16,144 nucleotides of DNA from the UHGV virus genome UHGV-0251712, one strand, 5' to 3'. Position 1 is the first letter of the stretch. The number at the start of each line of letters is the position of its first letter. The notes beneath the pieces were generated by a model, which made no database searches, was not told the DNA's origin, and saw only the letters and a list, made by a program, of their open reading frames with translations. This DNA is from a virus. Of this stretch, positions 527 to 14,928 are shown one piece after another. A program made the position numbers and the translations under genes.

Positions 527-545
527 TTCATTACGGAGTTTCTGC

Positions 546-1043: not shown

Positions 1044-1057
1044 GACGCCTCCATTAA

Positions 1058-1077
1058 TACTGTTTTTATATACAGTA
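1058..1077. promoter_or_regulatory. LexA (SOS) operator TACTGTTTTTATATACAGTA immediately upstream of sbmC
   Basis: Perfect CTGT-N8-ACAG palindrome with the TA-rich centre of the LexA box consensus, 15 bp upstream of the sbmC start. sbmC is a known SOS gene. Confidence 0.75.
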
Positions 1078-1161
1078 TAATTGCAAAATTAAAACCACAA
1101 GGAATGAGTGTTGATTATGCGAGCAGACTCGCACTCCTGCCAGTCTGCTGCAAAAGAAAGG

Positions 1162-2334
1162 TCAGGCCTTATGGTGGAAATAATCACTCAGGCGAGAAAA
1201 CATGCTGCCTTCCCCGACAGATTCCAGGGTAACCAGCGGCCAGTGCGCCACCTGTTTATCACGGTCGTAAAGTTCAATTTCCCCTACCCGCTGATGGGCG
1301 CTAATTGGCGCGGTGAGTTCTTTACCATCAAGGGTATATTTGGCTTTGATATGTGGAATTTCGGCTTTCGGTAGCACCATCCAGAACTCTTGTTCCGTTC
1401 CCAGGGCGATATTTTCTTTATCGCCATACCAGATGCGTTCCGTACCGACCTTTTTCCCACGGTGCAAAATTTGCACCGTAGTAAAGTTTTGTTGCCCCCA
1501 ACGCAGTAATTTTCTTGCCTCTTCCTCACGACCTTTTGCGCTGTCAGCACCCATTACCACTGCAATGAGACGACGCTGCCCATCTACAGCCGAAGCAATG
1601 AGATTAAACCCGGCACCAGAAGTATGACCCGTTTTCAGGCCGTCAACATTCATGGTTTTATCCCACAATAACCCGTTACGGTTTTGCTGGGTGATACCGT
1701 TCCAGGTGAGGCTTTTCTCACTGTACATATGATAAAACTCGGGCTCGCCGTGGATGATAGCACGAGAAAGCACAGCTAAATCATAAGCCGAGCTATGCTG
1801 GCCAGGTGCATCCAGACCATACACTGTTTCAAAATGCGTATCCTTGAGATGCAGCTTCTCGGCATAGTTGTTCATCATTTCAACAAACTGCCGTTGCCCA
1901 CCGGCAATATAGTCAGCCAGAGCAACACAAGCGTCATTTCCGGAATCCACAATTAAACCACGGCTTAAATCACGTACCGATACGCGATCGCCCTCTTTCA
2001 AAAACATCAGTGAAGAACCGACAAACACCGGATTATCTTTCGCCCACGCATCGCGCCCCACGGTGACAATATCGTCTGGCGTAATGCGATGACTATCGAT
2101 AGCGCGATCCACGACATAACCCGTCATCAGCTTTGTCAGGCTGGCGGGATTGCGCTGTTGATGCTCATTACCCGCGGTGAGGATCTGTCCGGTGGTGTAA
2201 TCCATCAGTACCCAGGACCCGGCATGAATCTCTGGAGGCTGAGGTGAAAAATGAATGTTTTCCGCCGCAAAACCAGACGATAAGTTAAAAACGAACAAAG
2301 AAGCAGCAATAATAAGACGGCGTTTCAACAGCAA
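1162..2334 (-). CDS. dacD: D-alanyl-D-alanine carboxypeptidase / penicillin-binding protein 6b
   Basis: 390-aa ORF with a signal peptide (MLLKRRLIIAASLFVFNLSSGFAAEN) and the SxxK (ASLTK), SGN and KTG motifs of class-C PBPs. Full-length match to E. coli DacD as remembered. The annotated start may be 2 codons downstream (MKRRL). Confidence 0.95.
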   Translation of the reverse strand: MLLKRRLIIAASLFVFNLSSGFAAENIHFSPQPPEIHAGSWVLMDYTTGQILTAGNEHQQRNPASLTKLMTGYVVDRAIDSHRITPDDIVTVGRDAWAKDNPVFVGSSLMFLKEGDRVSVRDLSRGLIVDSGNDACVALADYIAGGQRQFVEMMNNYAEKLHLKDTHFETVYGLDAPGQHSSAYDLAVLSRAIIHGEPEFYHMYSEKSLTWNGITQQNRNGLLWDKTMNVDGLKTGHTSGAGFNLIASAVDGQRRLIAVVMGADSAKGREEEARKLLRWGQQNFTTVQILHRGKKVGTERIWYGDKENIALGTEQEFWMVLPKAEIPHIKAKYTLDGKELTAPISAHQRVGEIELYDRDKQVAHWPLVTLESVGEGSMFSRLSDYFHHKA

Positions 2335-2536
2335 ACCCTCAGGAGTTTCAAATAGCTGTTCTTTTTACGGAAATACTTATGAACTGGCTGGAATAAAGTG
2401 CAAGAAAATGTGACTACCCTCGCATTTTTATCTGACATGATCTGTTGCCACTCGCTGTCAAATTGTTGCGCTAAAGCTGATTAGCACGGTGATATTTGAT
2501 ACTCTGGCAGACAGCAGAAATAACGGATTTAACCTA

Positions 2537-2599
2537 ATGATGAATGACGGTAAGCAACAATCTACCTTTTTGTTTCACGATTACGCGCAACACCCCTGA
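2537..2599 (+). pseudogene. sbcB: 5' remnant of the exonuclease I gene: MMNDGKQQSTFLFHDY (16 native codons), then junction and stop
   Basis: The translation matches the SbcB N-terminus MMNDGKQQSTFLFHDYETFG... through codon 16. From about 2585 the sequence no longer encodes ETFGTHPALD, and a TGA follows at 2597. Confidence 0.7.
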
Positions 2600-3205
2600 G
2601 AACCGCCATGAACAAGGGTTTCATGATTTGTGATTTTAGTTTGGTACGCAATTTGGTACACAACACAATTTTCACTTCAGCGGGTAGTCATCAAACTCAC
2701 CATAACGAGCATCGTTAATGATGTATGTGATCACCACAAACATCACATCTGGACTAGTTCCGCTTTCATGCGCAGGTATTTGTTCACGCCTCCCTTTCTG
2801 CAAATCATAAAGATGAGATTTTGGGGTTTTGGGATATCTTTTATCCGCAGTTCTCTATCCATTATGCAAACCAGTAATGAACCATCACCGTGTGATAGTG
2901 AGGCATCTGCCACGATAAGCGCAGAGAAATGATGCAGTGGTGGGCGGACTGGATTGATGAGAAGGTGGAGTGAACCACCTTAACCACTATCGAAGAGCAC
3001 AAAGCCTTGCAATCCAGTACAAAACTTTGTTTGTCTCATCAACTACCGCAAGTATCGATCGATGGAGCCTTGGATGATAGAATAAATTCGTAGCACTTTT
3101 TTTTAAAGTATCATCTCGCTCATGGTTACGTGATAGAAAAAGGACAAAATAATCTTAAATTTAAAAGCATATAAATCATACAAATAAAATTGTGGTGGGT
3201 GCGTA

Positions 3206-4204
3206 ATGTCTGATATTCGACAAAATAGAATAGAGTTAAATGAAGTGCATATAGCTCGCTCCATGGCTATATTTCTAGTTGTTTTACTTCATTCTTCAGG
3301 TGCTTTTTTTATGCAGTTTGGAGATCATTGGTGGATTGTTAATTTATACAGTTCTTTTTCAAGGCAGTGTATAGGTCTTTTTTTTCTTATCACTGGATAC
3401 CTATTTTATGAAAAAAACATAAACCCAACAGCACACCTAAAAAAAGGAGTGTCGAGATTGATAATACCATTCATATTTTGGTGGGTGGTATATTATATCT
3501 ACAATACAGAGATTAACAACAAATCATATAATTCTATATTTCAACCAAGTGAGGTACACCTTTGGTTTATGTATGCATATATTTGTATATATATGTTTTT
3601 ACCAATAATTTGCAACTCATTAAAACACATACCAACATATTACATTTTAATTATTGTAAGCATGCTTTTTTACTCAAATTCCATTGTCCCTGTAGTTGAT
3701 AAAACGATAATGAAGGTAACATGGTTTGATGTAAAACTAGTGTCTGAAAATGGGATATATATTCTTATTGGGGCAATAATAAGGAGATATAACGATAAAA
3801 TAAAAAAATGCAATGCAGTGATACCATTGGTGATTATTGTTATGTCGTGCCTGTTAACATCAATGGCATCTAGTTGGTGGTCTGAAATAACAGGCAGGCC
3901 TGAGCAGTTTTTCTTTAAAAATACATCTCCACTTGTATTAATATGTGTTATTTCTTCATTTACATTATGCATGTCATACTCAAAAATAATTAGCAAAAGA
4001 TTAATGAATTTATTTACATCAATATCAAATGTTTCATTTGGTATATACTTCGTCCATTTCTTTTTTGTTAGAGAAATTAGACTCGGGTATAATCAAGAAA
4101 ACGCATATTTCATGATACCATTGCTAACAATCATTTATTTTTTAATGTCATATTGCATATCAATAATTCTAAGCAAGATCCCTTTGCTTAGAAAAGTAAT
4201 ATAA
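3206..4204 (+). CDS. oac: acyltransferase-3 family integral membrane O-antigen O-acetyltransferase (Sf6 Oac-like), AT-rich serotype-conversion gene
   Basis: 332-aa polytopic membrane protein with very low GC (about 30%). The N-terminal ..IARSMAIFLVVLLHS.. motif is typical of acyltransferase_3. It lies stop-to-stop convergent with the tailspike gene, exactly as oac does next to gene 14 in Sf6. The symbol is given by context and size, not by verified sequence identity. Confidence 0.65.
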   Translation: MSDIRQNRIELNEVHIARSMAIFLVVLLHSSGAFFMQFGDHWWIVNLYSSFSRQCIGLFFLITGYLFYEKNINPTAHLKKGVSRLIIPFIFWWVVYYIYNTEINNKSYNSIFQPSEVHLWFMYAYICIYMFLPIICNSLKHIPTYYILIIVSMLFYSNSIVPVVDKTIMKVTWFDVKLVSENGIYILIGAIIRRYNDKIKKCNAVIPLVIIVMSCLLTSMASSWWSEITGRPEQFFFKNTSPLVLICVISSFTLCMSYSKIISKRLMNLFTSISNVSFGIYFVHFFFVREIRLGYNQENAYFMIPLLTIIYFLMSYCISIILSKIPLLRKVI

Positions 4205-6451
4205 TTATGGATTGTTAACCTTCCATCTTTTATCATAGTAATGCAAATATCCCTGAGACGTTAGTGTCATATGGACAATCGCTTGGGATATTTGCGCGTT
4301 CTGAAAATTAACTCTAATAAATACTTGAGTGCCAATTGTTATTTTTGATACAGATATCCCGTCAAGAGTCTTGTCTCCTTGTATTTTATTAACCCAAACA
4401 CCTGACGAAGACAAGGTTGCCTGATCCTTTCCGCTTATACTAAATATAATTTTACCTCCTGTTGCCAGTGAGGTGTTTACTCCATTTTGAGATATTGGAA
4501 TTATTGTAATTTCACCAGCAATGAAAACACCATTTTTGTATTTAGATACCTCACCTTGTTCACAAATTAAAATATCAATACATCTACCCCATGGTACTAG
4601 GATTGTTGCATTTTCAGTTTTTACTTGTGGATATACAGCTGAAACACCTGCAGATTCGAAATTTTTTGCTGATAAAACAACTCCGTCAGATCCATTTCTA
4701 AATCCCATTCCTGTATGATCACCGTATGTCCTTCCATGAGAGATGAATCCTCTTACATACTCTTCGGATACTGCGCTACCAGTGGTTTCCTTCTGAAAGA
4801 TAAATGTTTCACCAAAAGAAAAACCACGACATTGGTATTGGCTCTGATAATTTTCTGAGTTCTTAAAAAAGGAAATGCCTTTATATGCTGTTACATAGCC
4901 AGATCTAAATTGAACGGAAACAGGGGTTGTTTGTTCATCTGGAGGTAACTCCACAAAATGTGTAACATTTTGGCTGTTTGATTCCTGTAACCATACAGAA
5001 ACACCATCTATAATCATGGTTGAAAATCTACTGTTTATTTCTAACTCAGAAAAATCAAGAACATGATCACCTGTAACACCCTCAACTCCAAACCCATCAA
5101 TACTTAAAGACCTGAACTGATAGAATTTATGCGGTAACTCACAACCATCAGCTGCAATATTCATTGCGCTAGTGTACATTAATGGGTAAGGACTTATAAT
5201 TGGTTCATATGTTTCTCTATCTATTGCAGCCCCCCAAAGATACCCAACATTACAATGTCTTGCCCAGTTGGAAGAGAATGTAGTAGATGTGCCAGCCAAA
5301 CCGAAACCATAGATACAATCATATGCTTGGTTGTTTGTAACATTACTGACAAAGCATGATAAGGGAAGTGCAAATTTATAATGTAGAAATATGTTATTTT
5401 TAATATCATATTCACTACCCCCGCCAAAGGTTTGTGTTTGACCAGAAATGGCCAATGGGCTACCTGAATATTCATCGTCAGCGTTGCGAAAACACATATT
5501 CTTTACTTTAAGATTGTGCCCCCAACTTCCCATAACAAAACCACCACTTCCTGATGTATAAACAATACTTTTTTGTGGATTAATCCCATATAGATTTAGA
5601 CTAATCCCTTCCCATCTAAACTGGCTAATGTCAATTTGAGTGTTACCAATATATATAGGCTGGTCTATGAAAACAGGAAGTTTAGTTAGATAAGCTTTAT
5701 TAAGTGCTAATCCATCATTTGTTACACCTGTTAAATCAACGCCCCCCATGCTTGGCGCTCTAGGATACCCTGTGGCCTGAATAGTACTCCAGTCAATATA
5801 TGGAGCATCCATCCACGCTCCAAACATACGTGGTGTTACGTACCCCTTACCTTGAAGATCACGTTTCCAGCGTTTACCACCCACAGTGACAATGACCATG
5901 CCGTTATCATCTGCAGAAGTAGAATCTGTGAAATCGGCCACAAACAGACCACCACCAGTATCACCTGATACTGTCGGCTTCATGCCTGTAGTGTGGAAGT
6001 CGACGAAAATCTTTTGCTGATCTCGCTCAGGCTCAATTGTCCTTAACATTGCTATATCAGGGCATGTCCCGATGTATTTAAGACCGTCTTCCCCTGATAG
6101 AGATACTTTAAGCTGATCAGGATCATATTTAAGAACATTCGGAAAATAGAACTGCTGTGCACCATATGCATCATAAACAGCCATAGAATGGCCTTGCACA
6201 GTTACGAACTTGGCAATCTGTCCGTTATATACCGGATATCCAGCAGCGTTAATGATGATTGGTTGCGAAACAGGAACGCGAGAACCGTCTTCATTCTCCA
6301 CATAAACCTGAATCTGGTTTTCAGGATTTACCGGGTCAGTGTCAATTTTACCGATATAAATTTTGCCATTGGCTACGGCTTTAAAAGAACGAGCCATAGT
6401 GAAGAGTTGCGAAGGCATGCTTACCACAACATTTGCGGTGATATCTGACAT
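4205..6451 (-). CDS. tailspike protein: Sf6/HK620-type N-terminal head-binding domain fused to a distinct (unidentified) receptor-binding/depolymerase domain
   Basis: Residues 1-115 ([56 protein letters not shown]...VLKYDPDQ) are about 95% identical to the Sf6/HK620 tailspike N-domain and about 70% to P22 gp9. The true start is the second ATG (6451), which has a GGAG 7 nt upstream. The remaining ~630 aa do not match the Sf6 or P22 catalytic domains as remembered. Confidence 0.85.
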
Positions 6452-6572
6452 TTCATTGCTCCAGACGAATGATATGATGCAACCATGATGTGATTGCATA
6501 CCGAAATGGTACTATTGAGTATTTATCCAGTAGGTTACGATGCCATTCCACCCAACTGGTGAGGCATCAAGG

Positions 6573-6833
6573 ATGTACAGCAAATACGACGAGGCGCAGT
6601 TTCACTTGAGACTTCCGCATGAACTCCACGCGAAAATTAAGCAGCGTGCGAAGATGAATAACAGGTCGCTGAACTCAGAGATAATTGCAGCGATTGAAGA
6701 ATCATTGGCTAAACAAAGCTCTGCATCTGTTTACATTGACGATGCAGAGCGTATGGCAGAACAACAATCTGATATGGTTAAGAAAATTGTCTTTGATACG
6801 CTCAAGGAGCTATATAAAAAAGACAGCAGCTAA
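6573..6833 (+). CDS. mnt: Mnt-like ribbon-helix-helix repressor (P22 immI maintenance-of-lysogeny repressor family)
   Basis: C-terminal ..DDAERMAEQQSDMVKKIVFDTLKELYKKDSS matches P22 Mnt ..NDAERLADEQSELVKKMVFDTLKDLYKKTT. The N-terminal RHH region FHLRLPHELHAKIKQRAKMNNRSLNSEI matches FNFRMPMEVREKLKFRAEANGRSMNSEL. The start is chosen at the ATG aligning with the P22 Mnt N-terminus. Confidence 0.8.
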   Translation: MYSKYDEAQFHLRLPHELHAKIKQRAKMNNRSLNSEIIAAIEESLAKQSSASVYIDDAERMAEQQSDMVKKIVFDTLKELYKKDSS

Positions 6834-6852
6834 CCATCAGTTACGGAGGATT

Positions 6853-6933
6853 TATGCAAAGAGATATGCTGAACATTGCGTTCTACATATTTGGTTTTTG
6901 CACGTTCCTGGTGTTTGCGAAGCTATTCTGACA
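6853..6933 (+). CDS. possible 26-aa hydrophobic peptide MQRDMLNIAFYIFGFCTFLVFAKLF, overlapping the 3' end of the convergent ejection-protein gene
   Basis: ATG preceded by GGAGGA (4-5 nt spacer) directly after the mnt stop. The whole peptide is one TM-like helix. There is no other support. Confidence 0.15.
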
Positions 6934-9316
6934 ACGCATCAGACTTGGCACCCTGAGTAAGGGCGTTAATGGCCTTTTGCGCCTGCTGCATGGCTTTCTC
7001 AAACGCTGTTGATCCGCGTGGGGTGTTTGCCATTCGGAGCATTGCATTTCTGAATGGCTCGCTCTCATAGGCGCGAGTAAGAAGTCCGTAGCTTACTGCT
7101 GCGCCAGTTGTCGCCGGGTTCATTGCCGTCCCATATCCGATAATGAACGGGATGGTTTGCTGCCCTGTTGGTGTTGTTACTGCCGCTTTTGCTGCCTGCT
7201 GAGTGGACTGAAGGTAGTTTTTCAATCCTTTCAGATAAGCGGCTTCCTGACCTTTAAATGTGATGCCAGTCTGGTTTTGCAGGATGTTAAGCTGTCGAAG
7301 GAACTGGTCAGGTGAACCACCTGATTTCTCTATCGCCTTTCCAATAATGCCATTGCGCATTTGCGCTCTTCCAACGCGACCAACTGAGTTATACAGCGTC
7401 TTAATTTCCGATTTGTTCTTGCTGAATAGCATGTTGTTGACAACTTCCGGCGTCAGGTCGCCTTTCATGAGAACATTCTTCAGCCTGGTATTCTTTAGTT
7501 TCGCCGCTTCGTCAGCGTATACGGCATTGGCCTGCTGATATTTACGGAGAGTATCGTTGCCAAGATTCTGACCAATGGCACCATTGATATCGTCTGTCAT
7601 CGCCTTGTAAACGCGCTGAATGGCAGCATCGGAACGGTTTGGTAACACTGGTCGTTCACCCTTCACGTCCATTCTGAACTGGCTGCGCAGATCGCTTAAT
7701 TGCTTCAAATCCAGATTTACCGGACCATCAGGACCAGCATTGCGAACAAGCTCATCACGATATGACTGAAGTTTTGAAATAGTCTCGTTATCAGCAACCT
7801 TACCAAGCTTCTGCAGGTTAGATATTTCTGTATCAATCTGCTGAATTGCTCGCGCAGGCTGAATGTTTACTCCAGCCATAGCATTCTGAACCTGCTCCAG
7901 TCGATTACCGGCGGCACGACGAATTCCTGATGTTTTCGCTTTAAGGCTGTCAATAACAACAGATGGATCATACTCACCGAATTTATCAGCAAATCTCTGC
8001 ACCAACTGGCTTCTCGCTTCCTGTTGCGTTGCTCTCATTCCGCTTGTGCCAGCCAGAGGAATATTTTCTGCTGTAGTCTGCGCCATTTTTCCGACGCGGG
8101 AAGTAGGCTGTAACAGGTCTGTGGTGTGCAGAGGAACTCCTTCACGCTCTGCAAATCTGATAGCTTGCTGTGCTTCTGGCGCGATAGCACCACGAACGCC
8201 ACGATAAGCAGCACCTAATCCACGTCCGGCAGCGTTAATAGCACCGCCAGCAAGTACACCAACGCCTAAATCGGTGGCGAGTGCTTCCGCATCATCTTTC
8301 GCACTATTTGCAGCAAGTGATCCAACTGCGTTTTCTGCTAGAAGGCGAGTTGCCCCCTGAGCAATTCGACCAGCAAGTGTTGGTGCCTGTGCTGCCGCTC
8401 TCTCAACGCCAGCAGGAGTGAGGTAAGGCAATGCTTCAGCAAATACCCTTCCCTCTGTCGTTTGTGGAGTCAGCGCGCCTTGCCGAAGGCCAAAGTCCCG
8501 CTCTAATCCCTGCGTTGTTACTCGTGGTGCTGGTTGATATGTACCATCGCCAATGCCGAGTTTACCGCCAGCCCAAGCCGCCGCGCTTGTTACAGCATCA
8601 GTGAGTTCAGCAGGTATGTTCGCTACGTTGATTCCTGCCTGTAGTATGCCGCGCCCGGTTTCAGCAAGTCCATTACCAAGGTCAGACATTATTCCGCCTT
8701 GCTGCTGAACAGGTTTCGGTGCGACAGAACTTACGGGTTGAGGTGGCTGCTGACTGGCTGCCTGCTGCTCAATCTGAGCAAATGGATTATTTGGGTCTGA
8801 CTGCACACCTGATGCCGATACTTGTTCGGATGACTGTACTTCCAGTTGTGCAAACGGGTTGTTAGGGTCTTGCTGAGGATGTACCTTTGCAGAGGTGGCG
8901 CGCTGTTCGACTGTTGAGTCTGTCACCGGGTCACCCGCCCATTGAGCAAAGCGATCATCAACGTAACCGCGGCCTTCAGGTCCTGGCGTATATTCACCAC
9001 GCTTTGCCTTCATAACGTTGCCGGGACCGTCGTGATAAGCCTGAAGAGCGTCACGCCAGTTACCAAACTGCTGGTACATCTTTGCCAGATAGCGCGCGCC
9101 AGCGTCAGCCTGATATTCGGGGTTTTGCATTTGCTCATCGGTATAACCCATATCACGCCATGTCCCAGGCATGACCTGAGTCAATCCTACAGCCCCGGCG
9201 GAGCTTACTGCGGCAGGGTTGTAAGAAGACTCCTTGGCACCCAGTGCAGTCATCAACCCTTCTGGCACACCGTAACGTGCGCCAGCCTGCTCTAACAAAT
9301 CACGGTAATTAGCCAT
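6923..9316 (-). CDS. DNA ejection/injection protein (P22 gp16 / Sf6 gp13 position) with an N-terminal soluble lytic transglycosylase (SLT) domain
   Basis: 797-aa protein. Its N-terminus carries the SLT signature (..GAKESSYNPAAVSSAGAVGLTQVMPGTW...YLAKMYQQFGNW..AYHDGPGNV). It lies directly upstream of the tailspike in the Sf6/P22 late-operon order. The start is contiguous with the stop of the upstream gene (TAAATG). Confidence 0.65.
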   Translation of the reverse strand: MANYRDLLEQAGARYGVPEGLMTALGAKESSYNPAAVSSAGAVGLTQVMPGTWRDMGYTDEQMQNPEYQADAGARYLAKMYQQFGNWRDALQAYHDGPGNVMKAKRGEYTPGPEGRGYVDDRFAQWAGDPVTDSTVEQRATSAKVHPQQDPNNPFAQLEVQSSEQVSASGVQSDPNNPFAQIEQQAASQQPPQPVSSVAPKPVQQQGGIMSDLGNGLAETGRGILQAGINVANIPAELTDAVTSAAAWAGGKLGIGDGTYQPAPRVTTQGLERDFGLRQGALTPQTTEGRVFAEALPYLTPAGVERAAAQAPTLAGRIAQGATRLLAENAVGSLAANSAKDDAEALATDLGVGVLAGGAINAAGRGLGAAYRGVRGAIAPEAQQAIRFAEREGVPLHTTDLLQPTSRVGKMAQTTAENIPLAGTSGMRATQQEARSQLVQRFADKFGEYDPSVVIDSLKAKTSGIRRAAGNRLEQVQNAMAGVNIQPARAIQQIDTEISNLQKLGKVADNETISKLQSYRDELVRNAGPDGPVNLDLKQLSDLRSQFRMDVKGERPVLPNRSDAAIQRVYKAMTDDINGAIGQNLGNDTLRKYQQANAVYADEAAKLKNTRLKNVLMKGDLTPEVVNNMLFSKNKSEIKTLYNSVGRVGRAQMRNGIIGKAIEKSGGSPDQFLRQLNILQNQTGITFKGQEAAYLKGLKNYLQSTQQAAKAAVTTPTGQQTIPFIIGYGTAMNPATTGAAVSYGLLTRAYESEPFRNAMLRMANTPRGSTAFEKAMQQAQKAINALTQGAKSDALSE

Positions 9317-10648
9317 TTACTGCCCCAAAGATGGAAGATATCCGTAGCGATTAATGAAGTCGATTGACAGCTCGGGGTGCTGCTTCAGGTAATCTATAGA
9401 AGCCTGAGGCGCTTCCACTCGCTTGATACCGTTTTGCTGAACGTACTTACCAACCGCCTCATTACGCTTCTGGTTGAGCGTGTTCAGGATGACGCCAGCG
9501 TTGCGACGAAAGGACTCCTCGCTCTGCGAGTTCTGCAGCGAACCAACAGCCTGGTCGAGCTTTTTGCCCTCGGCATCAGAAAGTGCGCCCATGCCTCGCA
9601 TGGCCTGAACCGCTGTCAGGTATGCTTGGGATTTAAAGGTATCAAGTCGTGCCTGAGTGTCTGCAGCCTGTGAGCCTGGAACGTTGGGGATTACTCCACG
9701 TAAGCCTGTAATGCTCTTAAGTGAAGGAGAACTAACGATATCGTTCAGAGTGAACATGCTGGTTGTGAGGGTGTTGATGCCGTCTTTGTAGCCATCATTT
9801 AGCGCTTGCTGCTTCTGCTGCAACTGCTGGTTGTTGGCTGCTATGCGGCTCTGTATTTCCTGGCGCTTCAGGTCGTTAGTTTCTGCTGATAGCATCCGGT
9901 CAAGGCGCTTATTTTCGTTGTTAATGCGGTTTGTTTCTGCGTCCAGATTAATGCGCTGCTGACCTAAATTCGCCTGGATATCTTGCCCGCGCATTGTGAT
10001 TGCCTGATTCCGAGCGGCGGTTTGCGAATCCAGATCCTGACCGCGCATGGTAACCTGGCGACCCTGCATTTTATCCTGTAGGTCAAAGTATTTTTCGGGT
10101 CCGAGACTGTTCATCCCCAGGTGATCGACAAATTCGCCGAACTGCCGCGGGTTCTGTTGGTACATCTGAGCGACATCCTGAGGATTAACGCCAACACGAG
10201 CTAACTCACCGGCGTTGTTTTGCAGCCATGATTGCATTGCTTCTGGAGACGATGACGCAAGGCGTGCGCCAGCCGCTAAGGTGCCGATAGAATTACGCTG
10301 ATCTTCATCAATGAATCCCATGCCTTTACGAACGGATTCAATCTGTTCTGGATATTGAGTAGCCAACTGACGCAAAGCACCGCGATCACCAGACGCATAA
10401 GCATTAGCGTATGCCTGCTGAAATTCTTTCTGCCGCTGAGCCTGCTTTTCCTGCTGAAACACCCCCGCAATACCTGAAAGGCCTTGCAAAGCAGTCAGCC
10501 CAACATTGTTAGCGCCTGAACGCTCAATATCATTGTTCTGCCTGATAAGCTGAAGCGTATTGCCGATGTCATTTACGCTCGGAGCGTTTGAGTTGACGCC
10601 GCCGATACCAGCCAACAATCCGCCGTTTGTTCCTTGCCAAGTAGCCAT
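9317..10648 (-). CDS. DNA ejection protein (P22 gp20 / Sf6 gp12 position), Q-rich coiled-coil protein
   Basis: 443-aa protein, called by position between the gp7-like stub and the gp16-position gene. It contains internal near-repeats (TMRGQDLDSQ / TMRGQDIQAN). AAGGGG lies upstream of the ATG. Confidence 0.55.
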   Translation of the reverse strand: MATWQGTNGGLLAGIGGVNSNAPSVNDIGNTLQLIRQNNDIERSGANNVGLTALQGLSGIAGVFQQEKQAQRQKEFQQAYANAYASGDRGALRQLATQYPEQIESVRKGMGFIDEDQRNSIGTLAAGARLASSSPEAMQSWLQNNAGELARVGVNPQDVAQMYQQNPRQFGEFVDHLGMNSLGPEKYFDLQDKMQGRQVTMRGQDLDSQTAARNQAITMRGQDIQANLGQQRINLDAETNRINNENKRLDRMLSAETNDLKRQEIQSRIAANNQQLQQKQQALNDGYKDGINTLTTSMFTLNDIVSSPSLKSITGLRGVIPNVPGSQAADTQARLDTFKSQAYLTAVQAMRGMGALSDAEGKKLDQAVGSLQNSQSEESFRRNAGVILNTLNQKRNEAVGKYVQQNGIKRVEAPQASIDYLKQHPELSIDFINRYGYLPSLGQ

Positions 10649-10657
10649 GATTACCCC

Positions 10658-10835
10658 TTAAAACAACGAGCCAAGCAATCCGATACCAGCACCAATGCCA
10701 GCGCCCCAAGGCGTTGATGTTCCCAAAAGGCTGGCAAGACCTGCACCGGCAATCGCACCAGACGTGCCACCGCTAATTGCAGTCTGAAGACTTGATGGTT
10801 TAACCAAAGAGTAGTTGGCTTTGGGGTGACGTGAA
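10658..10835 (-). pseudogene. 3' terminal fragment of a gp7-like ejection protein gene (glycine-rich hydrophobic C-terminus), truncated by a deletion
   Basis: Only about 60 codons remain, ending ..GAIAGAGLASLLGTSTPWGAGIGAGIGLLGSLF immediately before the gp20-position gene. The frame runs upstream into the ssb fragment with no plausible start. P22 gp7 is about 229 aa. Confidence 0.35.
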
Positions 10836-11267
10836 GTGCAGCTGCACGACGGCAACCTGACAATAGCAACGTCAGAACAATGGCGAGATAAAAATACTGG
10901 CGAGCAAAAGGAATTGACTGAATGGCATCGTGTTGCTGTATCCGGGAAACTGGCTGAGGTCGTGGGGCAGTATGTGAAAAAAGGTGATCAGATTTATTTC
11001 GAGGGAATGCTGAGAACCAGAAAGTGGAAAGACCAGTCAGGGCAAGACCGTTACACAACCGAGGTTCATGTCGGAATTAATGGCGTGATGCAAATGCTTG
11101 GCGGCATTGGCGACAGCAAACAACAAGCAGCCAGCAGGCAATCACAGAAGCCACAGCAGCAATCATCACCAGCACAACACAACGAACCTCCGATGGATTT
11201 TGACGACGATATACCCTTTGCACCAGTAACTCTCCCCTTCCCTCGTCACGCTATTCACGCAATTTAA
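10836..11267 (+). pseudogene. ssb: single-strand DNA-binding protein gene lacking its first ~35 codons, with a 15-codon extension after the DDDIPF tail
   Basis: The translation ..[27 protein letters not shown]...[12 protein letters not shown]...MQMLGG...[12 protein letters not shown] aligns with E. coli SSB from residue ~36 onward. A TGA lies 3 codons upstream in frame and there is no ATG. DDDIPF is followed by [15 protein letters not shown] instead of a stop. Confidence 0.85.
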
Positions 11268-11280
11268 TCAGGAGAAAATC

Positions 11281-11577
11281 ATGCCAGCGCCTCAGTATGG
11301 TGCGGATGACCCGCGCCGCTGTTCCGGCAATTCCGTATCGGAGGTGCTGGATAAATTCAGAAAAAACTACGACCGGATAATGTCGCTACCGCAGGAAACA
11401 AAAGAGGAAAAGGAATTTCGCCACTGTATATGGCTTGCAGAGAAAGAAGAACGAGAGCGAATTTACCAGACATCAATCCGACCATTCCGCAAAGCCACAT
11501 ATACCCACTTCCCTGAATATATCGACCCGCGCCTGCGTAATTACCGCTCACGCTATGGCTCTATCAGTAATGACTGA
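11281..11577 (+). CDS. hypothetical phage early (PL-operon) protein, 98 aa
   Basis: Strong RBS (AGGAG, 5 nt spacer) before the ATG. It is co-oriented with ssb and the downstream ea-type genes. No family recognised. Confidence 0.5.
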
Positions 11578-11587
11578 GGAATTTACC

Positions 11588-11755
11588 ATGAGAGGACTTG
11601 CATACAATCCCGGCATTCTTCCGGCAGAAATGATTATTCGCCAACGCGTAAAGCCAATGCCATCGAGAGAGGAATTGCTTAAGAGAAATTCTTTTCCGTC
11701 AGTAAATCAAAACAAATATCTGAATGCGATGTGGCGTAAAGGAGGCAAGCAGTGA
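11588..11755 (+). CDS. hypothetical small protein (55 aa; an alternative start at 11567 is possible)
   Basis: GAGGA lies 8 nt upstream of the ATG at 11588. The ORF overlaps the previous stop (ATGA) and ends overlapping the next start. Confidence 0.3.
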
Positions 11756-12051
11756 GTGTATGTCTTATTGATAAACGTCGACGTGGGCAACAAATACCAT
11801 CTGTTGGAATGCCGAATCACACATGGTTTTGCGTACTTGATATCGATGGTATGGATGCGTTGGTTGACACTCGTCATTACTGCGATACCGCAACAGCTAC
11901 TCCGGCGAAAGCAAAGAAAATGGCTGCTCTGATAGAAAACTGGACTCCACCTGATGGTTGGTGCAATGGGAATGATCGAGATTGGCACGAAAAAATGAAG
12001 GGCTATATCTGCGATTTTTTACGTAAATGCAACGGATTCAGGGTGATGTGA
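11752..12051 (+). CDS. hypothetical protein, 99 aa, GTG start
   Basis: GGAGG lies 6 nt upstream of the GTG at 11752. Cys/His-containing (..[25 protein letters not shown]..). Its stop overlaps the next start (TGACATG). Confidence 0.45.
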
Positions 12052-12052
12052 C

Positions 12053-12742
12053 ATGAGCAAGATTGCCTATCAGGCACTGCGTGAAAAGGCAGAGAAAGCA
12101 ACGTGTGGTGTGTGGTCGCTCGAATATGGAGAGGGCCGATTTGATGGTGATGATGCGCTAATTCATCGTGAAGTTGCTGGATATATTCCCATTTGCAGAA
12201 TTGAAGGAGCGCATCCTGAAAGCGGTTTCGATGAAGATTTCCAAATGGAACAGCAGGCCAATGCTGAATTCATCGCAGCAGCCAGTCCAGCTACCGTGCT
12301 GGCACTACTGGATGAACGGGAAAGAAACCAGCAGTACATCAAACGCCGCGACCAGGAGAACGAAGATATTGCGCTAACGGTAGGGAAGCTGCGTGTTGAT
12401 CTGGAAGCCGCAGAGAAGCGCAACGCAAAATTACAAAGCGAGAATGCATACATCCGCAACAGGTACAAAGAACTGGACCTATTAATCGGGAAAAACATTC
12501 TGGTCATGCAGGCTGCCATTATCGAATGGCAATCTACTGGCGACGCTAAAAGCGGACTGGCATGGATTTATAACACACTGTTTGGCCCAGGCGAATTGCC
12601 GGACGAATCTGAGAAAGATGCTCAGGCCTACTTTAATCGCAAAAATGAACCGATTGACGAAAAGCTTATGGAGCTTCACAAGTGGTTTTGGGAACAAAGT
12701 GAAGCCGAGCGTGTCGCTGGCATTCGCATCAAAGGAGAGTGA
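12053..12742 (+). CDS. coiled-coil phage early protein, possibly Ead/Ea22-like family
   Basis: 229-aa protein with an acidic N-terminal half and a central coiled coil (..KRRDQENEDIALTVGKLRVDLEAAEKRNAKLQSENAYIRNRYKELD..). Resembles 'ead/Ea22-like' prophage proteins as remembered; not verified. Confidence 0.45.
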   Translation: MSKIAYQALREKAEKATCGVWSLEYGEGRFDGDDALIHREVAGYIPICRIEGAHPESGFDEDFQMEQQANAEFIAAASPATVLALLDERERNQQYIKRRDQENEDIALTVGKLRVDLEAAEKRNAKLQSENAYIRNRYKELDLLIGKNILVMQAAIIEWQSTGDAKSGLAWIYNTLFGPGELPDESEKDAQAYFNRKNEPIDEKLMELHKWFWEQSEAERVAGIRIKGE

Positions 12743-12743
12743 T

Positions 12744-12941
12744 ATGGATAAAAACACCACTGCTTACTGGAATCTGTCACTTGATACCGAATGCCCAAAA
12801 TGCGGTCACAATTTCGATCTGCTTTGTGACGCTGATTTCTGGGAGTTTTCTGGAGCTAAACAGGCATGTGAAGAAATAAAAGGTTACAAAACATGCTGTC
12901 CGGAATGTAACCATGAATTTAAAACAGATTTCATATATTGA
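12744..12941 (+). CDS. 65-aa C4 zinc-ribbon protein
   Basis: MDKNTTAYWNLSLDTECPKCGHNF...CCPECNHEF: two CxxC pairs. GGAGAG lies before the ATG, and the start sits 1 nt after the previous stop (translational coupling). Confidence 0.45.
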   Translation: MDKNTTAYWNLSLDTECPKCGHNFDLLCDADFWEFSGAKQACEEIKGYKTCCPECNHEFKTDFIY

Positions 12942-12951
12942 GGCATAACAA

Positions 12952-13398
12952 ATGACCACTATTACCAAAGAACGTATTGAATTGTTCATTAAAAATCCGC
13001 TTGAAAACGGGCTTACTCGTGGCGAACAAATGGAACTGGCACGAATTGCACTGGCATCACTGGAACGCGAACTGATTCGCCACGAGCATGCCAAATGGTC
13101 TGACTCCACATTTGGCTGCGTTGGCCCCATTGGTCCACTGAAACACCTCTCAAAAGAGACACTGGAAGCCGCAGCCGAACCAGACGATCTTAGCGAGTGG
13201 GCTGATATGCAGTTTCTGTTGTGGGATGCACAGCGCCGTGCTGGCATCAGCGATGCTGAAATTACCGCTGCTATGGAAGATAAATTGAAGATCAACATGG
13301 AGCGCCAGTGGCCTGAGCCAAAAGATGGTGAGCCTCGCTTGCACATTAAAGAACTCGGCAACTCTCCGGTAATTCCGGATGGTTCGGATGATGGTTAA
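12952..13398 (+). CDS. MazG-like all-alpha nucleotide pyrophosphohydrolase-type protein (prophage 'dATP/dGTP diphosphohydrolase' type)
   Basis: 148-aa protein with KETLEAAAE...DLSEWADMQFLLWDAQRRAGI, which fits the ExxE-(x12)-ExxD metal-binding pattern and helix arrangement of MazG/DUF550 proteins. GAGG RBS. Confidence 0.45.
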   Translation: MTTITKERIELFIKNPLENGLTRGEQMELARIALASLERELIRHEHAKWSDSTFGCVGPIGPLKHLSKETLEAAAEPDDLSEWADMQFLLWDAQRRAGISDAEITAAMEDKLKINMERQWPEPKDGEPRLHIKELGNSPVIPDGSDDG

Positions 13399-13547
13399 CC
13401 ATTTTTGATGTAAAAACATCCTTCTCTGAGGGCTTGCTCCTCAATAAGTTTGGTTTTATAATTACGCGCAATGAAGGTGGGCGGTTCGCTACTATACAAG
13501 AGGGGTGTACCCCGCGAACTTAACCCACCACCACTTTCCTCTCTACT

Positions 13548-14195
13548 ATGAATTGCAAATCAATGACCAGAAAATATGCCATCATGATCGATGCTGGTTT
13601 TTTGCGTGCAAAATTAGGCACAAAAGATAAGCCAATCGATGCGGAAGTAATCAAAGTATTTGTAGAAAAACTAACAAAAAGGCATGAACTAGAAGGCATG
13701 ATTTTGCACCGTGTTTATTATTACGATGCAGAGCCGCTTACCGGAATACAGACGCATCCGATTAGTGGAGAGAAAATTGACTTCTCTGAAACAGAAGTTT
13801 CTAAAAGAAATAAAGCCATGCTTGATGAGTTGAAAAGAACTCCTTTTTTTGCAGTAAGACTTGGAGAGACAAACTTTCGAGGATGGAAGGTTGACCCATG
13901 GGCATTAAAGAGCAGTGACTCTAAAACTTCTTCCATTAATGCCTACAATGTTAAGCCTAATGTTCAGCAGAAAGGCGTTGATATGCGTATTGCGTTAGAT
14001 ATGTCATCAATGTCATTAAAAAAACAGGCAGATATATATGCTTTGGTGACTGGTGATTCAGATTTTGTTCCAATTATAAAATTTGCTAGGAAAGAAGGCC
14101 GACAGATTTTTCTATACACACTGGGACATAGTGTCAAGCAGACGATGTATGAACATTCCGATTTGTTAGTGCCAGATACCATGGATAAATTGTGA
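13548..14195 (+). CDS. NYN-domain (LabA/PIN-like) predicted ribonuclease, low-GC cargo gene
   Basis: 215-aa protein with the N-terminal ..YAIMIDAGFL.. (first Asp), the central QQKGVDMRIALDM motif, and the GDSDFVP motif (ALVTGDSDFVPIIKFARKEGRQI) diagnostic of PF01936 NYN domains. GC is clearly lower than the flanks. It is preceded by a 150-bp non-coding leader. The start may be the internal ATG at 13563. Confidence 0.7.
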   Translation: MNCKSMTRKYAIMIDAGFLRAKLGTKDKPIDAEVIKVFVEKLTKRHELEGMILHRVYYYDAEPLTGIQTHPISGEKIDFSETEVSKRNKAMLDELKRTPFFAVRLGETNFRGWKVDPWALKSSDSKTSSINAYNVKPNVQQKGVDMRIALDMSSMSLKKQADIYALVTGDSDFVPIIKFARKEGRQIFLYTLGHSVKQTMYEHSDLLVPDTMDKL

Positions 14196-14374
14196 TTGGA
14201 GCTAGGAATAGGTTAGCCGCGCCTTAATAGATGATCCATTCTGGCAGAAAAAGAACACAAAGAAGTAGCCTAAGTGCCCCCAACTGCATTTACACCCAGG
14301 CCCTCATTGCGGGTCTTTCTATTTACAGAGATGGCTGAGCAGAACGCCAAGAACTGACAACCTGAACGAATACG

Positions 14375-14400
14375 AACCCGCCTAGTGCGGGTTTTCTTTT
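14375..14400 (+). terminator. rho-independent terminator (AACCCGC-CTAGT-GCGGGTT + TTTTCTTTT)
   Basis: 7-bp GC-rich stem followed by a T-run. Confidence 0.6.
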
Positions 14401-14405
14401 ATCTG

Positions 14406-14430
14406 AACTCGCTACGGCGAGTTTTGTTTT
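14406..14430 (+). terminator. second, near-duplicate rho-independent terminator (AACTCGC-TACG-GCGAGTT + TTTTGTTTT)
   Basis: Same architecture as the upstream terminator with one stem transition. The T-run ends 1 nt before the next ATG. Confidence 0.55.
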
Positions 14431-14742
14431 ATGGAGATGATTATGGCCTGTTCAACATTCAACCATTTAACGTTACAGAAATACCAGCCAGACCCTGAAG
14501 ATTTATGCTCACTGTGTGGCGGAAATCATGGTAAAGCCGCCATGATCGAATGTAAGGACAAAATCCACATTTGCCTTAATTGCGTTGATGTCCTCGTTGA
14601 TATCAAAAATGAGAGAGAAGATAAAAAGCGTAGCGAGGCTATTCGCGCATTAGATTCATGGATGCGAGATGGGTATAGTGCTGCGCAAATTTATGACTTC
14701 GCAATATCAAAAGGCGAAATACCAGGAGTGCGCATCGAATAA
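14431..14742 (+). CDS. small C4 zinc-finger protein (about 100 aa; probable start at 14443, MACSTFNHL..)
   Basis: CSLCGG...CLNC motif pairs. GGAGA lies 5 nt upstream of the ATG at 14443. It is followed by a terminator at 14784-14808. Confidence 0.5.
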   Translation: MEMIMACSTFNHLTLQKYQPDPEDLCSLCGGNHGKAAMIECKDKIHICLNCVDVLVDIKNEREDKKRSEAIRALDSWMRDGYSAAQIYDFAISKGEIPGVRIE

Positions 14743-14783
14743 GACGTAACCAATATTCGAATTGAAGAACTGAAAGAACACCA

Positions 14784-14823: not shown

Positions 14824-14928
14824 ATGACCGATACCAGCCTGATTCCTGAGAAAGAAGTGATGAACAAGCTCGGTGTTTCATCACGTCAGACAATCTGGAA
14901 CTATACCAAACGGCACGGATGGATATAG
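14824..14928 (+). pseudogene. AlpA/TorI-family excisionase/regulator gene truncated after codon 32 (34-aa product ending ..KRHGWI*)
   Basis: GGAGA RBS. MTDTSLIPEKEVMNKLGVSSRQTIWNYTKRHG matches the N-terminal HTH of AlpA/TorI/Vis proteins (..LGVSRSTIYR..K.G.FP..). It breaks exactly where the 36-bp int-derived repeat begins (14917). Confidence 0.5.

What the first reader, a model, noticed from the sequence alone, without database searches (positions are those of the whole stretch)
2537..2700. Prophage remnant junction lies inside the 5' end of sbcB (exonuclease I), leaving 16 codons
The translation from 2537 is MMNDGKQQSTFLFHDY, which is the SbcB N-terminus. It then departs from ETFGTHPALD.. 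at about 2585 into foreign AT-richer DNA that leads to the oac/tailspike end of the phage. Sf6-type phages normally use argW, so a junction inside a protein-coding DNA-repair gene is unexpected. It means either a novel attachment site or a secondary deletion or inversion that removed the flank. Loss of exonuclease I is itself phenotypically relevant: it is an sbcB-type suppressor of recBC and causes mutator or recombination phenotypes. About 50 bp inside the junction there is a tandem direct repeat TTTGGTAC-N4-TTTGGTAC (about 2639-2662) that could be an integrase arm-type site.
Basis: partly seen in the sequence, partly recalled or inferred. Interest (0 to 1): 0.5.

Follow-up and report, generated by a model that had tools for sequence, protein, structure and literature searches.

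The report
Known prophage attachment site in sbcB
The 16-codon sbcB stub is the ordinary tail-side junction of a prophage family already known to insert into the start of sbcB, and these phages bring a replacement gene start, so close relatives keep a full-length exonuclease I gene.

Summary
Window 2537-2584 is sbcB codons 1-16, and K-12 homology stops exactly at 2585.

- **Known site.** The last 13 bases of host homology (2573-2585, TTTCACGATTACG) are the published core of the "type 2851" attachment site, used by Stx2c phage 2851, Sf101, HK544 and mEp234. The DNA that follows matches the attP arm of those free phages. This is a native tail-side junction (attR), not a novel site or a secondary deletion.
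- **sbcB is probably not lost.** These phages carry a surrogate sbcB start (MTDTDKQPTFLFHDY) next to int. Integration therefore rebuilds a full-length gene at the integrase side. A genome 99.93% identical to the window has that 474-codon sbcB about 180 bp beyond the window's right edge. The same junction is in 582 of 5426 complete E. coli genomes.
- **Wide distribution.** Integrase relatives lie beside a full-length (or near full-length) sbcB in 24 species representatives, including Orbaceae, Photobacterium and Parendozoicomonas.
- **The repeat guess holds up.** TTTGGTAC-N4-TTTGGTAC (2640-2659) behaves like integrase arm-type sites, judged by conserved layout and a motif that co-varies between arms.
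- **The contig is suspect.** The prophage is a 13.8-kb P22-like remnant, and the contig looks partly misassembled.

The feature is already known and of low interest.

The parts
1162..2328 (-). dacD (D-Ala-D-Ala carboxypeptidase), the host gene to the left of the attachment site
   Evidence: Pfam Peptidase_S11 and PBP5_C. Collinear with K-12 dacD.
2335..2536 (+). Native dacD-sbcB intergenic region holding the host sbcB upstream region, now separated from the gene body
   Evidence: Near-identical to K-12 L002 6555-6756. No promoter was mapped here.
2537..2599 (+). Orphan host sbcB 5' fragment: 16 sbcB codons, then AQHP and a stop
   Evidence: Translation and alignment A1 to K-12 attB.
2573..2585 (+). 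13-bp att core TTTCACGATTACG, the crossover identity shared by attB and attP. It covers sbcB codons F13-H14-D15-Y16 and the first base of E17.
   Evidence: Single exact match in the window. Reverse complement of the published 2851/Sf101 core. Annotated as attP or insertion duplication in HK544 and phage 1717.
2586..2912 (+). Integrase-distal arm of the type-2851 attP, the phage side of attR
   Evidence: 90% identical to Sf101 attP and 95% to HK544 attP. Homology to argW-type Sf6-like prophages starts only at 2913.
2640..2661 (+). Two direct repeats, TTTGGTACGC and TTTGGTACAC, 12 nt apart and 57 and 69 nt from the core. Candidate arm-type integrase binding sites.
   Evidence: The block is 25/26 conserved against AST198 while the adjacent spacer is 23/53. 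SEN34 has the same layout with a co-varying motif. Int carries Arm-DNA-bind_3.
2675..2925 (-). Frameshifted, N-terminally truncated UmuD/HumD-like (S24 peptidase) pseudogene
   Evidence: tblastn with the intact homologue from E. coli YZ22PE165 gives two frames, E=4e-18 and 1e-7.
3206..4204 (+). Acyltransferase-3 family membrane protein. Its position suggests O-antigen modification. It is not Sf6 Oac or Sf101 OacB.
   Evidence: Pfam PF01757, E=5e-34. BLASTP against Oac and OacB.
4205..6499 (-). P22-type tailspike
   Evidence: Pfam Head_binding, E=5e-67. Called as 748 aa in L008.
6540..6833 (+). Mnt/Arc-type repressor
   Evidence: Pfam Arc and Repressor_Mnt.
6923..9316 (-). gp16-type ejection protein with a lytic transglycosylase domain
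   Evidence: Pfam SLT. PF26808 Phage_P22_gp16 on the identical protein.
9317..10648 (-). gp20-type ejection protein
   Evidence: Pfam Inj_translocase, E=4e-68.
10658..10802 (-). Last 48 codons of the gp7-type ejection gene. The internal deletion that made the prophage a remnant starts at 10802.
   Evidence: Homology to Sf101, L012, L011 and L007 ends at 10802 in every case. The virion head, terminase, lysis, replication and immunity genes are all absent.
10836..14742 (+). Early-left operon remnant: truncated ssb, abc2 anti-RecBCD, DUF2737, DUF7739, Ead/Ea22, a dATP/dGTP pyrophosphohydrolase, an NYN-domain protein and a hypothetical protein
   Evidence: Pfam hits. Same gene order in L008.
14917..15153 (.). 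Inverted 237-bp segment (int 3' end plus alpA 3' end) with a 36-bp inverted duplication (14917-14952 and 15154-15189) and 62 bp missing. Probably an assembly artefact.
   Evidence: BLASTN against AST198 and L008 and self-BLAST. Absent from all 5426 complete E. coli genomes and from the GTDB species representatives.
15149..16144 (-). Type-2851 tyrosine integrase, first 331 of 392 codons as assembled. Its start codon is the last base triplet of the window.
   Evidence: Pfam Arm-DNA-bind_3 and Phage_integrase. 100% identical to L008 int over 15154-16144. L008 Int is 99.0% identical to phage 2851 Int.

Best explanation
Positions 2573-2585 are the tail-side junction (attR) of a lambdoid, P22-like prophage. 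Its tyrosine integrase, of the 'type 2851' kind, recombines a 13-bp core (TTTCACGATTACG) in the phage attP with the identical sequence at codons 13-17 of the host sbcB gene.

Integration splits sbcB at that core. The host upstream region and first 16 codons stay beside dacD as a dead 20-codon stub.

The rest of sbcB is joined, at the integrase end of the prophage, to a phage-borne surrogate. This is about 180 bp of upstream DNA plus an in-frame start encoding MTDTDKQPTFLFHDY. The lysogen therefore keeps a full-length exonuclease I gene in which only residues 1-10 differ and the metal ligands Asp15 and Glu17 are retained.

The two TTTGGTAC(G/A)C repeats 57 and 69 nt inside the junction are most likely arm-type binding sites for the integrase N-terminal arm-binding domain. 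Three more copies lie next to the int start, beyond the window edge.

The prophage itself is a 13.8-kb remnant. An internal deletion joins the gp7-type ejection gene to ssb. The tailspike and acyltransferase cassette is shared with argW-integrating Sf6-like phages, so the unexpected site reflects mosaic exchange of the int/att module.

**Shown:** the junction position, core identity, collinearity with free-phage attP, and regenerated sbcB in relatives.
**Inferred:** that the surrogate region supplies a working promoter, that the regenerated ExoI is active, that the repeats bind Int, and that this particular contig has the intact sbcB beyond its edge.
For: **Junction and core**
- K-12 homology ends at 2585.
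- The core at 2573-2585 is an exact match to the published 2851/Sf101 attP core. GenBank annotates the same 13 bp as 'attP (type 2851)' in HK544 and mEp234, and as the insertion duplication in phage 1717.
- The seven-sequence alignment of attB, attP, attR and attL shows the window equals host sequence left of the core and HK544/Sf101 attP right of it (52/53, 26/26, 50/52 identities to HK544).

**Regenerated sbcB**
- E. coli AST198 has dacD, then the stub, prophage and int, then a 1425-bp sbcB.
- Contig JALDNO010000012.1 of GCA_024502405.1 is 99.93% identical to window 677-14920. It has an intact 392-aa int followed by a 474-aa SbcB that is 98% identical to K-12.
- 582 of 5426 complete E. coli genomes have this phage-type attL and 4841 have intact attB, accounting for all 5423 genomes with a match. 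In every row listed the region is annotated sbcB.
- Integrase relatives (40-99% identity) lie about 180 bp upstream of, and divergent from, an sbcB that aligns with K-12 SbcB from the first ten residues to the end, or near it. This holds in 24 species representatives, from Buttiauxella to Gilliamella, Photobacterium and Parendozoicomonas.
- Asp15, Glu17 and Asp186 are the ExoI metal ligands (PMC3675492).

**Arm-type sites**
- Int has Pfam Arm-DNA-bind_3.
- Three repeats with 23/24 and 11 nt spacing lie next to int in 18 of 21 diverse loci. Only 0.04% of other 70-nt windows have three or more GTAC.
- The motif differs between lineages (TGGTACRC, TGTACRC, TTGGACGCA).
- In Salmonella phage SEN34 both arms carry the same variant (TGTACT) at the same distances as here.
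- The repeat block is 25/26 conserved against AST198, where the spacer is only 23/53.

**Mosaic origin**
- Window 2913-10802 is 99.56% identical to a prophage next to tRNA-Arg(CCU).
Against: - The window ends at the int start codon, so the attL core and the regenerated sbcB are not visible for this contig itself. They are expected about 215-227 bp and about 182 bp beyond position 16144 respectively.
- As assembled, the window's int and alpA are broken by a small inversion, and the contig carries foreign Bacteroidetes DNA at its left end. The contig cannot be assumed faithful to any genome.
- No sigma-70 consensus promoter was found by the simple scan in the surrogate upstream region of Sf101.
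- No expression or activity data for the chimeric ExoI were found in the papers searched.
- Arm-site binding is not experimentally shown. I could not read the original phage 2851 paper (PMC2583581 is not held).
Confidence: 0.93

Rival explanations
1. The junction is a novel attachment site, or the product of a secondary deletion or inversion that removed the original prophage flank.
For: Sf6 itself uses argW, and the window's tailspike and acyltransferase cassette is 99.56% identical to an argW-integrated prophage. The prophage is a remnant with an internal deletion at 10802.
Against: The break falls exactly at the published 13-bp core. The phage side is collinear with intact attP of free phages. 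The same junction type occurs in hundreds of genomes. The internal deletion is 8 kb away and does not touch the junction.
Confidence: 0.02
2. The insertion inactivates sbcB, giving an ExoI-null (sbcB-type) host with altered recombination or mutator phenotypes.
For: The host upstream region and first 16 codons are physically separated from the gene body. The regenerated gene has a foreign upstream region with no consensus promoter found by a simple scan, and 8 of its first 10 residues differ from the corresponding K-12 residues. [quoted passage not shown]
Against: A full-length in-frame sbcB is regenerated in the near-identical genome. It is also regenerated across 24 species representatives in which the phage-borne start is conserved in frame, which argues for selection to keep the gene working. 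The catalytic Asp15 and Glu17 are retained.
Confidence: 0.05
3. The junction is an assembly artefact of a chimeric contig.
For: The contig carries Bacteroidetes TraG fragments at 1-297. It has two fold-back inversions with short inverted duplications that are seen in no other genome.
Against: The 2585 junction and everything from 677 to 14920 are reproduced at 99.93% in an independent isolate assembly. The junction type is common in complete genomes.
Confidence: 0.01

Closest known systems
Type-2851 att/int module (Stx2c phage 2851, Stx2 phage 1717, Sf101, HK544, HK140, mEp234)
   Same: Identical 13-bp core. The integrase is 99% identical to phage 2851 Int, measured on the near-identical L008 copy. 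The int-distal arm is 90-95% identical. The insertion point is the same, in the 5' end of sbcB between dacD and sbcB.
   Different: Here the module is attached to a deleted P22-like remnant. That remnant carries a different tailspike and a different acyltransferase from Sf101. As assembled, int and alpA are rearranged.
Shigella phage Sf6 and argW-integrating P22-like prophages
   Same: Gene order runs ejection proteins, mnt, tailspike, acyltransferase. Window 2913-10802 is 99.56% identical to an argW-side prophage in L012.
   Different: The integrase (385 aa) and the att site (tRNA-Arg CCU) are different, and in Sf6 int lies next to oac. The window's acyltransferase is unrelated to Sf6 Oac beyond family level.
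Lambda attP architecture (core plus arm-type Int sites)
   Same: A tyrosine integrase with an N-terminal arm-binding domain. Clusters of direct repeats lie on both arms, two on one and three on the other, tens to about 200 bp from a short core. The comparison with lambda rests on textbook knowledge.
   Different: The motif is different. The three-site cluster is about 165-205 bp from the core on the integrase side. No binding data exist. The target is a protein-coding 5' end, not an intergenic site.
Phages that integrate into genes and carry a duplicate of the displaced gene end (for example phage 21 and e14 in icd, or tRNA-targeting integrases)
   Same: The phage carries a diverged copy of the part of the target gene it displaces, so the gene stays whole after insertion. 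This is the general principle from textbook knowledge. Here it is shown.
   Different: Those cases replace the 3' end. Here the 5' end is replaced, so the phage must also supply the translation start and, presumably, the promoter.

Membership tests
Type-2851 attachment site (sbcB-integrating lambdoid prophages) | 13-bp core CGTAATCGTGAAA / TTTCACGATTACG at the prophage-host junction | tested here: met
   Exact match at 2573-2585, unique in the window. Core as published and as annotated in GenBank.
Type-2851 attachment site (sbcB-integrating lambdoid prophages) | Junction lies in the 5' end of sbcB, between dacD and sbcB | tested here: met
   K-12 collinearity through dacD and sbcB codons 1-16, ending at 2585.
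Type-2851 attachment site (sbcB-integrating lambdoid prophages) | Integrase closely related to phage 2851 Int | tested here: met
   Window 15154-16144 is 100% identical to L008 int. L008 Int is 99.0% identical to 2851 Int and 99.7% to Sf101 Int. The C-terminal 61 codons are displaced by an inversion in the window as assembled.
Type-2851 attachment site (sbcB-integrating lambdoid prophages) | Phage side of the junction is collinear with the attP of free phages of the type | tested here: met
   Alignment A1 and block identities to HK544 and Sf101.
Type-2851 attachment site (sbcB-integrating lambdoid prophages) | Second copy of the core at the integrase end, fused to the remainder of sbcB (attL) | not testable with these tools
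   It lies about 215 bp beyond the window edge. It is present in the 99.93%-identical L008 contig and in AST198. Exact look-up of the window's truncated Int found no source contig, and a breakpoint-specific scan of genome contigs found nothing.
P22-like (Lederbergvirus-type) prophage | P22-type tailspike head-binding domain and gp7/gp20/gp16 ejection proteins, with Mnt | tested here: met
   Pfam Head_binding, Inj_translocase, SLT, Arc and Repressor_Mnt. gp16 and gp7 families on identical or collinear proteins.
P22-like (Lederbergvirus-type) prophage | Complete virion, lysis, replication and immunity modules, that is, an intact prophage | tested here: not met
   Only about 13.8 kb lie between the att cores. 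Homology to complete relatives stops at 10802 and resumes in ssb. It is a remnant.
Shigella serotype-converting O-acetyltransferases (Oac of Sf6, OacB of Sf101) | Sequence similarity to Oac or OacB beyond the shared Acyl_transf_3 fold | tested here: not met
   BLASTP best E=0.20 against Sf6 Oac. Against OacB, E=7e-5 over 80 residues at 31% identity.
Arm-type integrase binding sites | Repeated motif on both attP arms, away from the core, conserved in position and co-varying with the integrase lineage | tested here: met
Arm-type integrase binding sites | Direct binding by the Int N-terminal domain | not testable with these tools
   Needs EMSA or footprinting. Only the presence of Pfam Arm-DNA-bind_3 in Int is shown.

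The most novel reading that the evidence does not exclude
Every member of this integrase family examined replaces the host's sbcB upstream region and first 10 or so codons with its own. Lysogeny may therefore hand transcriptional control of exonuclease I to the prophage, for example to tune ssDNA-end degradation, recombination or ExoI-dependent anti-phage systems, rather than merely preserving the gene. The conserved repeat-rich 180-bp int-sbcB spacer would then be a dual-purpose regulatory region. It holds three arm-type sites plus multiple TG(G/A)ACA repeats, which are expanded to about ten tandem GTGAACA copies in one Klebsiella genome. I found no paper that states this. The phage 2851 paper could not be read.
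Probability: 0.2. Interest if true: 0.45.

Novelty: already known. Interest (0 to 1): 0.12.

Why it matters
As flagged, it does not matter much. It is a textbook-style prophage junction at a catalogued insertion site, and it does not indicate an ExoI-deficient host.

Three practical lessons follow.
- A short orphan gene start next to a prophage should prompt a look at the integrase end before gene loss is called.
- P22-like late modules travel with interchangeable int/att modules, so the late genes do not predict the integration site.
- This contig has signs of misassembly and should be used with care.

Two modest by-products may help people who annotate prophage ends. First, the family targets the codons for the first catalytic motif of ExoI across several families of Gammaproteobacteria. 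Second, its probable arm-type sites can be read directly from comparative data. SbcB has recently been tied to control of a reverse-transcriptase defence system (bioRxiv 10.64898/2026.04.29.721553). This makes phage control of sbcB expression a reasonable question, but nothing here tests it.

Tried and rejected
**Finding the source contig**
- I scanned genome contigs for the int inversion breakpoint and got no hit.
- An exact look-up of the 331-aa truncated Int was not on record.
- Look-up of the 797-aa ejection protein did find a near-identical isolate contig, L008.

**Features tested and dropped**
- I tested for a terminator just inside the junction. Sf101 has a terminator-like hairpin there. 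In the window the hairpin is weakened, the scan finds none, and the fold is no better than shuffles (z=0.62).
- I looked for a sigma-70 promoter in the surrogate sbcB upstream region of Sf101. The simple scan found none, so the promoter remains inferred.
- I considered that the displaced host sbcB promoter drives the conversion gene. The gene next to the junction is on the opposite strand in AST198 and YZ22PE165, so there is no consistent arrangement.
- I tested whether the acyltransferase is Sf6 Oac or Sf101 OacB. It is neither.

**Literature and low-quality data**
- The original phage 2851 paper (PMC2583581) is not held.
- I searched for an explicit statement that sbcB is regenerated and found none.
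- The Shigella flexneri locus L046 and E. coli L047 are error-rich assemblies, 91-97% identical to K-12. They say nothing reliable about sbcB integrity there.

Full report
**1. The observation**

Window 2537-2584 translates to MMNDGKQQSTFLFHDY. This is identical to the start of K-12 sbcB. BLASTN of the window against the K-12 dacD-sbcB region shows 98.95% identity from 677 to 2585, and the match ends exactly at 2585. After that the frame reads AQHP and stops at 2597-2599.

**2. What the junction is**

The last 13 bases of host homology, TTTCACGATTACG (2573-2585), occur once in the window. They are the reverse complement of CGTAATCGTGAAA. The Sf101 paper reports that sequence as the attP core shared with Stx2c phage 2851. 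[quoted passage not shown]

GenBank records support this:
- HK544 and mEp234 annotate the 13 bp as 'attP; prophage attachment site (type 2851)'.
- Phage 1717 annotates them as the 'duplication due to insertion of stx2c phage'.
- sbcB is one of the four standard Stx-prophage insertion loci scored in O157:H7 (PMC8309913).

An alignment of K-12 attB, Sf101 and HK544 attP, three tail-side junctions (attR) and one integrase-side junction (attL) shows the classic pattern. The window is host sequence to the left of the core and phage attP to the right. Identities to HK544 in successive blocks are 52/53, 26/26 and 50/52. [quoted passage not shown] It is not a novel site and not the scar of a later deletion.

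**3. Is sbcB lost?**

In the free phages, the DNA between int and the core encodes an in-frame surrogate start. It reads ATG ACA G(A/G)C ACA GAT AAA CAA CCT ACC TTC CTC TTT CAC GAT TAC G, which translates to MT(D/G)TDKQPTFLFHDY. It is 21/33 identical to the host sequence just upstream of the core.

After integration this surrogate is fused to the body of sbcB. Three lines of evidence show this.
- E. coli AST198 has dacD, the stub, a prophage remnant and int, followed 181 bp later by a 1425-bp sbcB.
- An exact-protein look-up with the window's 797-aa ejection protein found contig JALDNO010000012.1 of GCA_024502405.1 (locus L008). It has the same remnant in the same place.
- L008 matches window 677-14920 at 99.93%, with 10 mismatches in 14,244 bp. 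It carries an intact 392-aa integrase and a 474-aa SbcB. That SbcB is 98% identical to K-12 ExoI and differs mainly in residues 1-10.

Two junction-spanning queries divide the 5426 complete E. coli genomes cleanly. 582 have the phage-type attL and 4841 have the intact attB, which together make all 5423 genomes with a match. In every row listed the region is annotated sbcB.

The window itself stops at the integrase start codon. Its own attL and sbcB should lie about 215 bp and about 182 bp further right and cannot be seen. By analogy with L008 they are very probably there.

**4. How old and how general**

A scan of one genome per species with the integrase returned 35 loci. In 24 species representatives the integrase relative (40-99% identity) lies about 180 bp upstream of, and divergent from, sbcB. 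In each case that sbcB aligns with K-12 SbcB from within the first ten residues to the end, or near it (to residue 433 in Parendozoicomonas). These genomes come from Escherichia, Buttiauxella, Erwinia, Pantoea, Serratia, Rahnella, Tatumella, Rosenbergiella, Chimaeribacter, Klebsiella, Orbus, Gilliamella, Photobacterium and Parendozoicomonas. In nearly all of them the junction again reads ...TT(T/C)CA(C/T)GA(T/C)TA(C/T)GA... in frame.

The core covers the codons for Phe13, His14, Asp15 and Tyr16. Asp15 and Glu17 are conserved metal ligands of ExoI (PMC3675492). The integrase therefore targets one of the most constrained pieces of the gene, which is a sensible explanation for its broad host range. 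That last step is inference.

**5. The TTTGGTAC repeats**

The integrase has an N-terminal Arm-DNA-bind_3 domain (PF13356, E=6e-18). TGGTACRC occurs only at 2642-2649 and 2654-2661 in the window. In Sf101, HK544, AST198 and phage 1717 it occurs as two copies on this arm and three copies just upstream of int, all in one orientation.

Four comparisons support a binding-site role.
- Between the window and AST198, the 53 columns separating the core from the repeats are only 23/53 identical, but the repeat block is 25/26.
- In 18 of 21 diverse int-sbcB loci, three GTAC-containing repeats lie within about 57 nt of the int start, spaced 23/24 and 11 nt. Only 0.04% of other 70-nt windows in those loci hold three or more GTAC.
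- The motif changes with lineage: TGGTACRC in Escherichia, Pantoea and Tatumella; TGTACRC in Erwinia, Serratia and Orbaceae; TTGGACGCA in Photobacterium.
- Salmonella phage SEN34 (Int 60.5% identical) has a complete attP. It carries three TGTACT repeats by int, a surrogate sbcB start, the same core, and two TGTACT repeats 59 and 71 nt after the core. The window's distances are 57 and 69 nt.

Conserved geometry with a motif that co-varies between the two arms is what arm-type sites should look like.

**6. The prophage and the 'Sf6 uses argW' argument**

Pfam identifies the following genes:
- an acyltransferase-3 protein (3206-4204);
- a P22-type tailspike (4205-6499);
- Mnt (6540-6833);
- gp16- and gp20-type ejection proteins (6923-10648);
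- then ssb', abc2 and other early-left genes (10836-14742);
- the integrase (15149-16144).

Homology to complete relatives stops at 10802, inside the gp7-type gene. The prophage is therefore a remnant of about 13.8 kb that lacks head, lysis, replication and immunity genes.

Window 2913-10802 is 99.56% identical to a gut-metagenome prophage (L012). That prophage sits next to tRNA-Arg(CCU) and has a 385-aa integrase. Window 2586-2912 is type-2851 attP arm. The unexpected site is thus a normal consequence of lambdoid mosaicism, with a joint at 2912/2913.

The acyltransferase is not Sf6 Oac or Sf101 OacB. Between the repeats and that gene lies a frameshifted, truncated UmuD/HumD-like pseudogene on the minus strand (2675-2925).

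**7. Problems with the contig**

- Bases 1-297 encode two pieces of a Bacteroidetes conjugative-transposon TraG, on opposite strands, at 58.9% GC. They are joined directly to E. coli yeeA/sbmC DNA.
- Positions 298-684 are a fold-back rearrangement of the yeeA-sbmC spacer, with a 65-bp inverted duplication and 121 bp missing.
- Positions 14917-15153 are an inverted copy of the int and alpA 3' ends, with a 36-bp inverted duplication and 62 bp missing. This cuts Int to 331 aa.
- None of 5426 complete E. coli genomes has the int rearrangement, nor does any GTDB species representative. L008 has neither E. coli-side rearrangement (the sbmC/yeeA fold-back or the int/alpA inversion).

These are most simply assembly or amplification chimeras. 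They do not affect the 2585 junction, which lies in the 14.2-kb block reproduced in L008.

**8. Verdict**

The feature is real and its anatomy is now clear, but it is an already known attachment site behaving as expected. The claims that would have made it interesting are not supported: a new site, a rearrangement, or loss of exonuclease I.

The small additions are comparative:
- the breadth of the int-sbcB association;
- the conserved phage-borne replacement of the sbcB start;
- a concrete arm-site model.

The open question is whether the phage-supplied upstream region changes sbcB expression in lysogens.

Noticed in passing
window 1-297: This 58.9% GC DNA encodes two fragments of a Bacteroidetes/Flavobacteria conjugative-transposon TraG ATPase (TIGR03783). 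Profile positions 170-230 are on the + strand and 97-154 on the - strand. The DNA is joined directly to E. coli yeeA/sbmC sequence at 297/298, so the contig is chimeric.
   Followed up: partly
window 298-684: A fold-back rearrangement of the yeeA-sbmC region. Positions 298-461 are in normal orientation and 463-684 are inverted. There is a perfect 65-bp inverted duplication (298-362 and 462-526), and 121 bp including the sbmC 3' end are missing relative to L008 and K-12. As a result the sbmC ORF (564-1043) has a foreign C-terminus.
   Followed up: partly
window 14917-15189: A 237-bp inversion covers the int 3' end and alpA 3' end, with a 36-bp inverted duplication and a 62-bp loss. It truncates Int from 392 to 331 aa and removes the C-terminal part of the catalytic domain. 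It is found in none of 5426 complete E. coli genomes nor in GTDB representatives, and is absent from the 99.93%-identical L008.
   Followed up: yes
window 2675-2925 (- strand): A UmuD/HumD-like S24 peptidase pseudogene lies directly after the arm repeats. It is frameshifted and lacks about 44 N-terminal codons. The intact gene occupies this position in AST198, YZ22PE165 and HK140.
   Followed up: yes
window 10802-10836: An internal deletion joint fuses the last 48 codons of the gp7-type ejection gene to a 5'-truncated ssb. The same joint is present in L008. AST198 has a different deletion that joins an ejection gene to an N antiterminator fragment.
   Followed up: partly
window 2912/2913; L012 8515-16416: A mosaic joint. 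Left of 2913 is type-2851 attP arm. Right of it, 7.9 kb (acyltransferase to gp7') is 99.56% identical to a human-gut metagenome P22-like prophage integrated next to tRNA-Arg(CCU).
   Followed up: yes
L016-L045, about 60-190 nt upstream of int (for example L016 3810-3940; L040 3860-3980): Besides the three arm-type repeats, the int-sbcB spacer is full of TG(G/A)ACA-like repeats. One Klebsiella sp. genome (L040) has about ten tandem GTGAACA copies there and only one arm-type repeat. These may be binding sites for the AlpA-type excisionase or for regulation of the surrogate sbcB promoter.
   Followed up: no
L052 (Klebsiella phage ST11-VIM1phi8.3) 660-905: A 61%-identical integrase with the same three-repeat arm (TGTACT) lies next to the 5' end of a different gene, annotated intracellular protease. 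The junction contains GATTACGAAAC, the same bases as the right half of the sbcB core plus flank. This hints at how target specificity shifts within the family.
   Followed up: no
L046 (S. flexneri SFBU1023) and L047 (E. coli ECMA0423) 3740-4322: The integrase is cut after 322 bp. The surrogate sbcB start is a phage/host hybrid (ATGACAGACACAGATAAACAA followed by TCTACCTTTTTGTTTCACG). This suggests recombination between the two diverged 5' copies upstream of the 13-bp core. Both assemblies are error-rich, at 91-97% identity to K-12.
   Followed up: partly
L028, L032-L034, L036, L037: Six integrase relatives (50-68% identity; Yersinia, Xenorhabdus, Ca. Erwinia dacicola, Proteus, a gammaproteobacterial MAG and a second Rosenbergiella copy) have no sbcB within the 4-kb upstream flank. 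The family therefore also has other targets.
   Followed up: no
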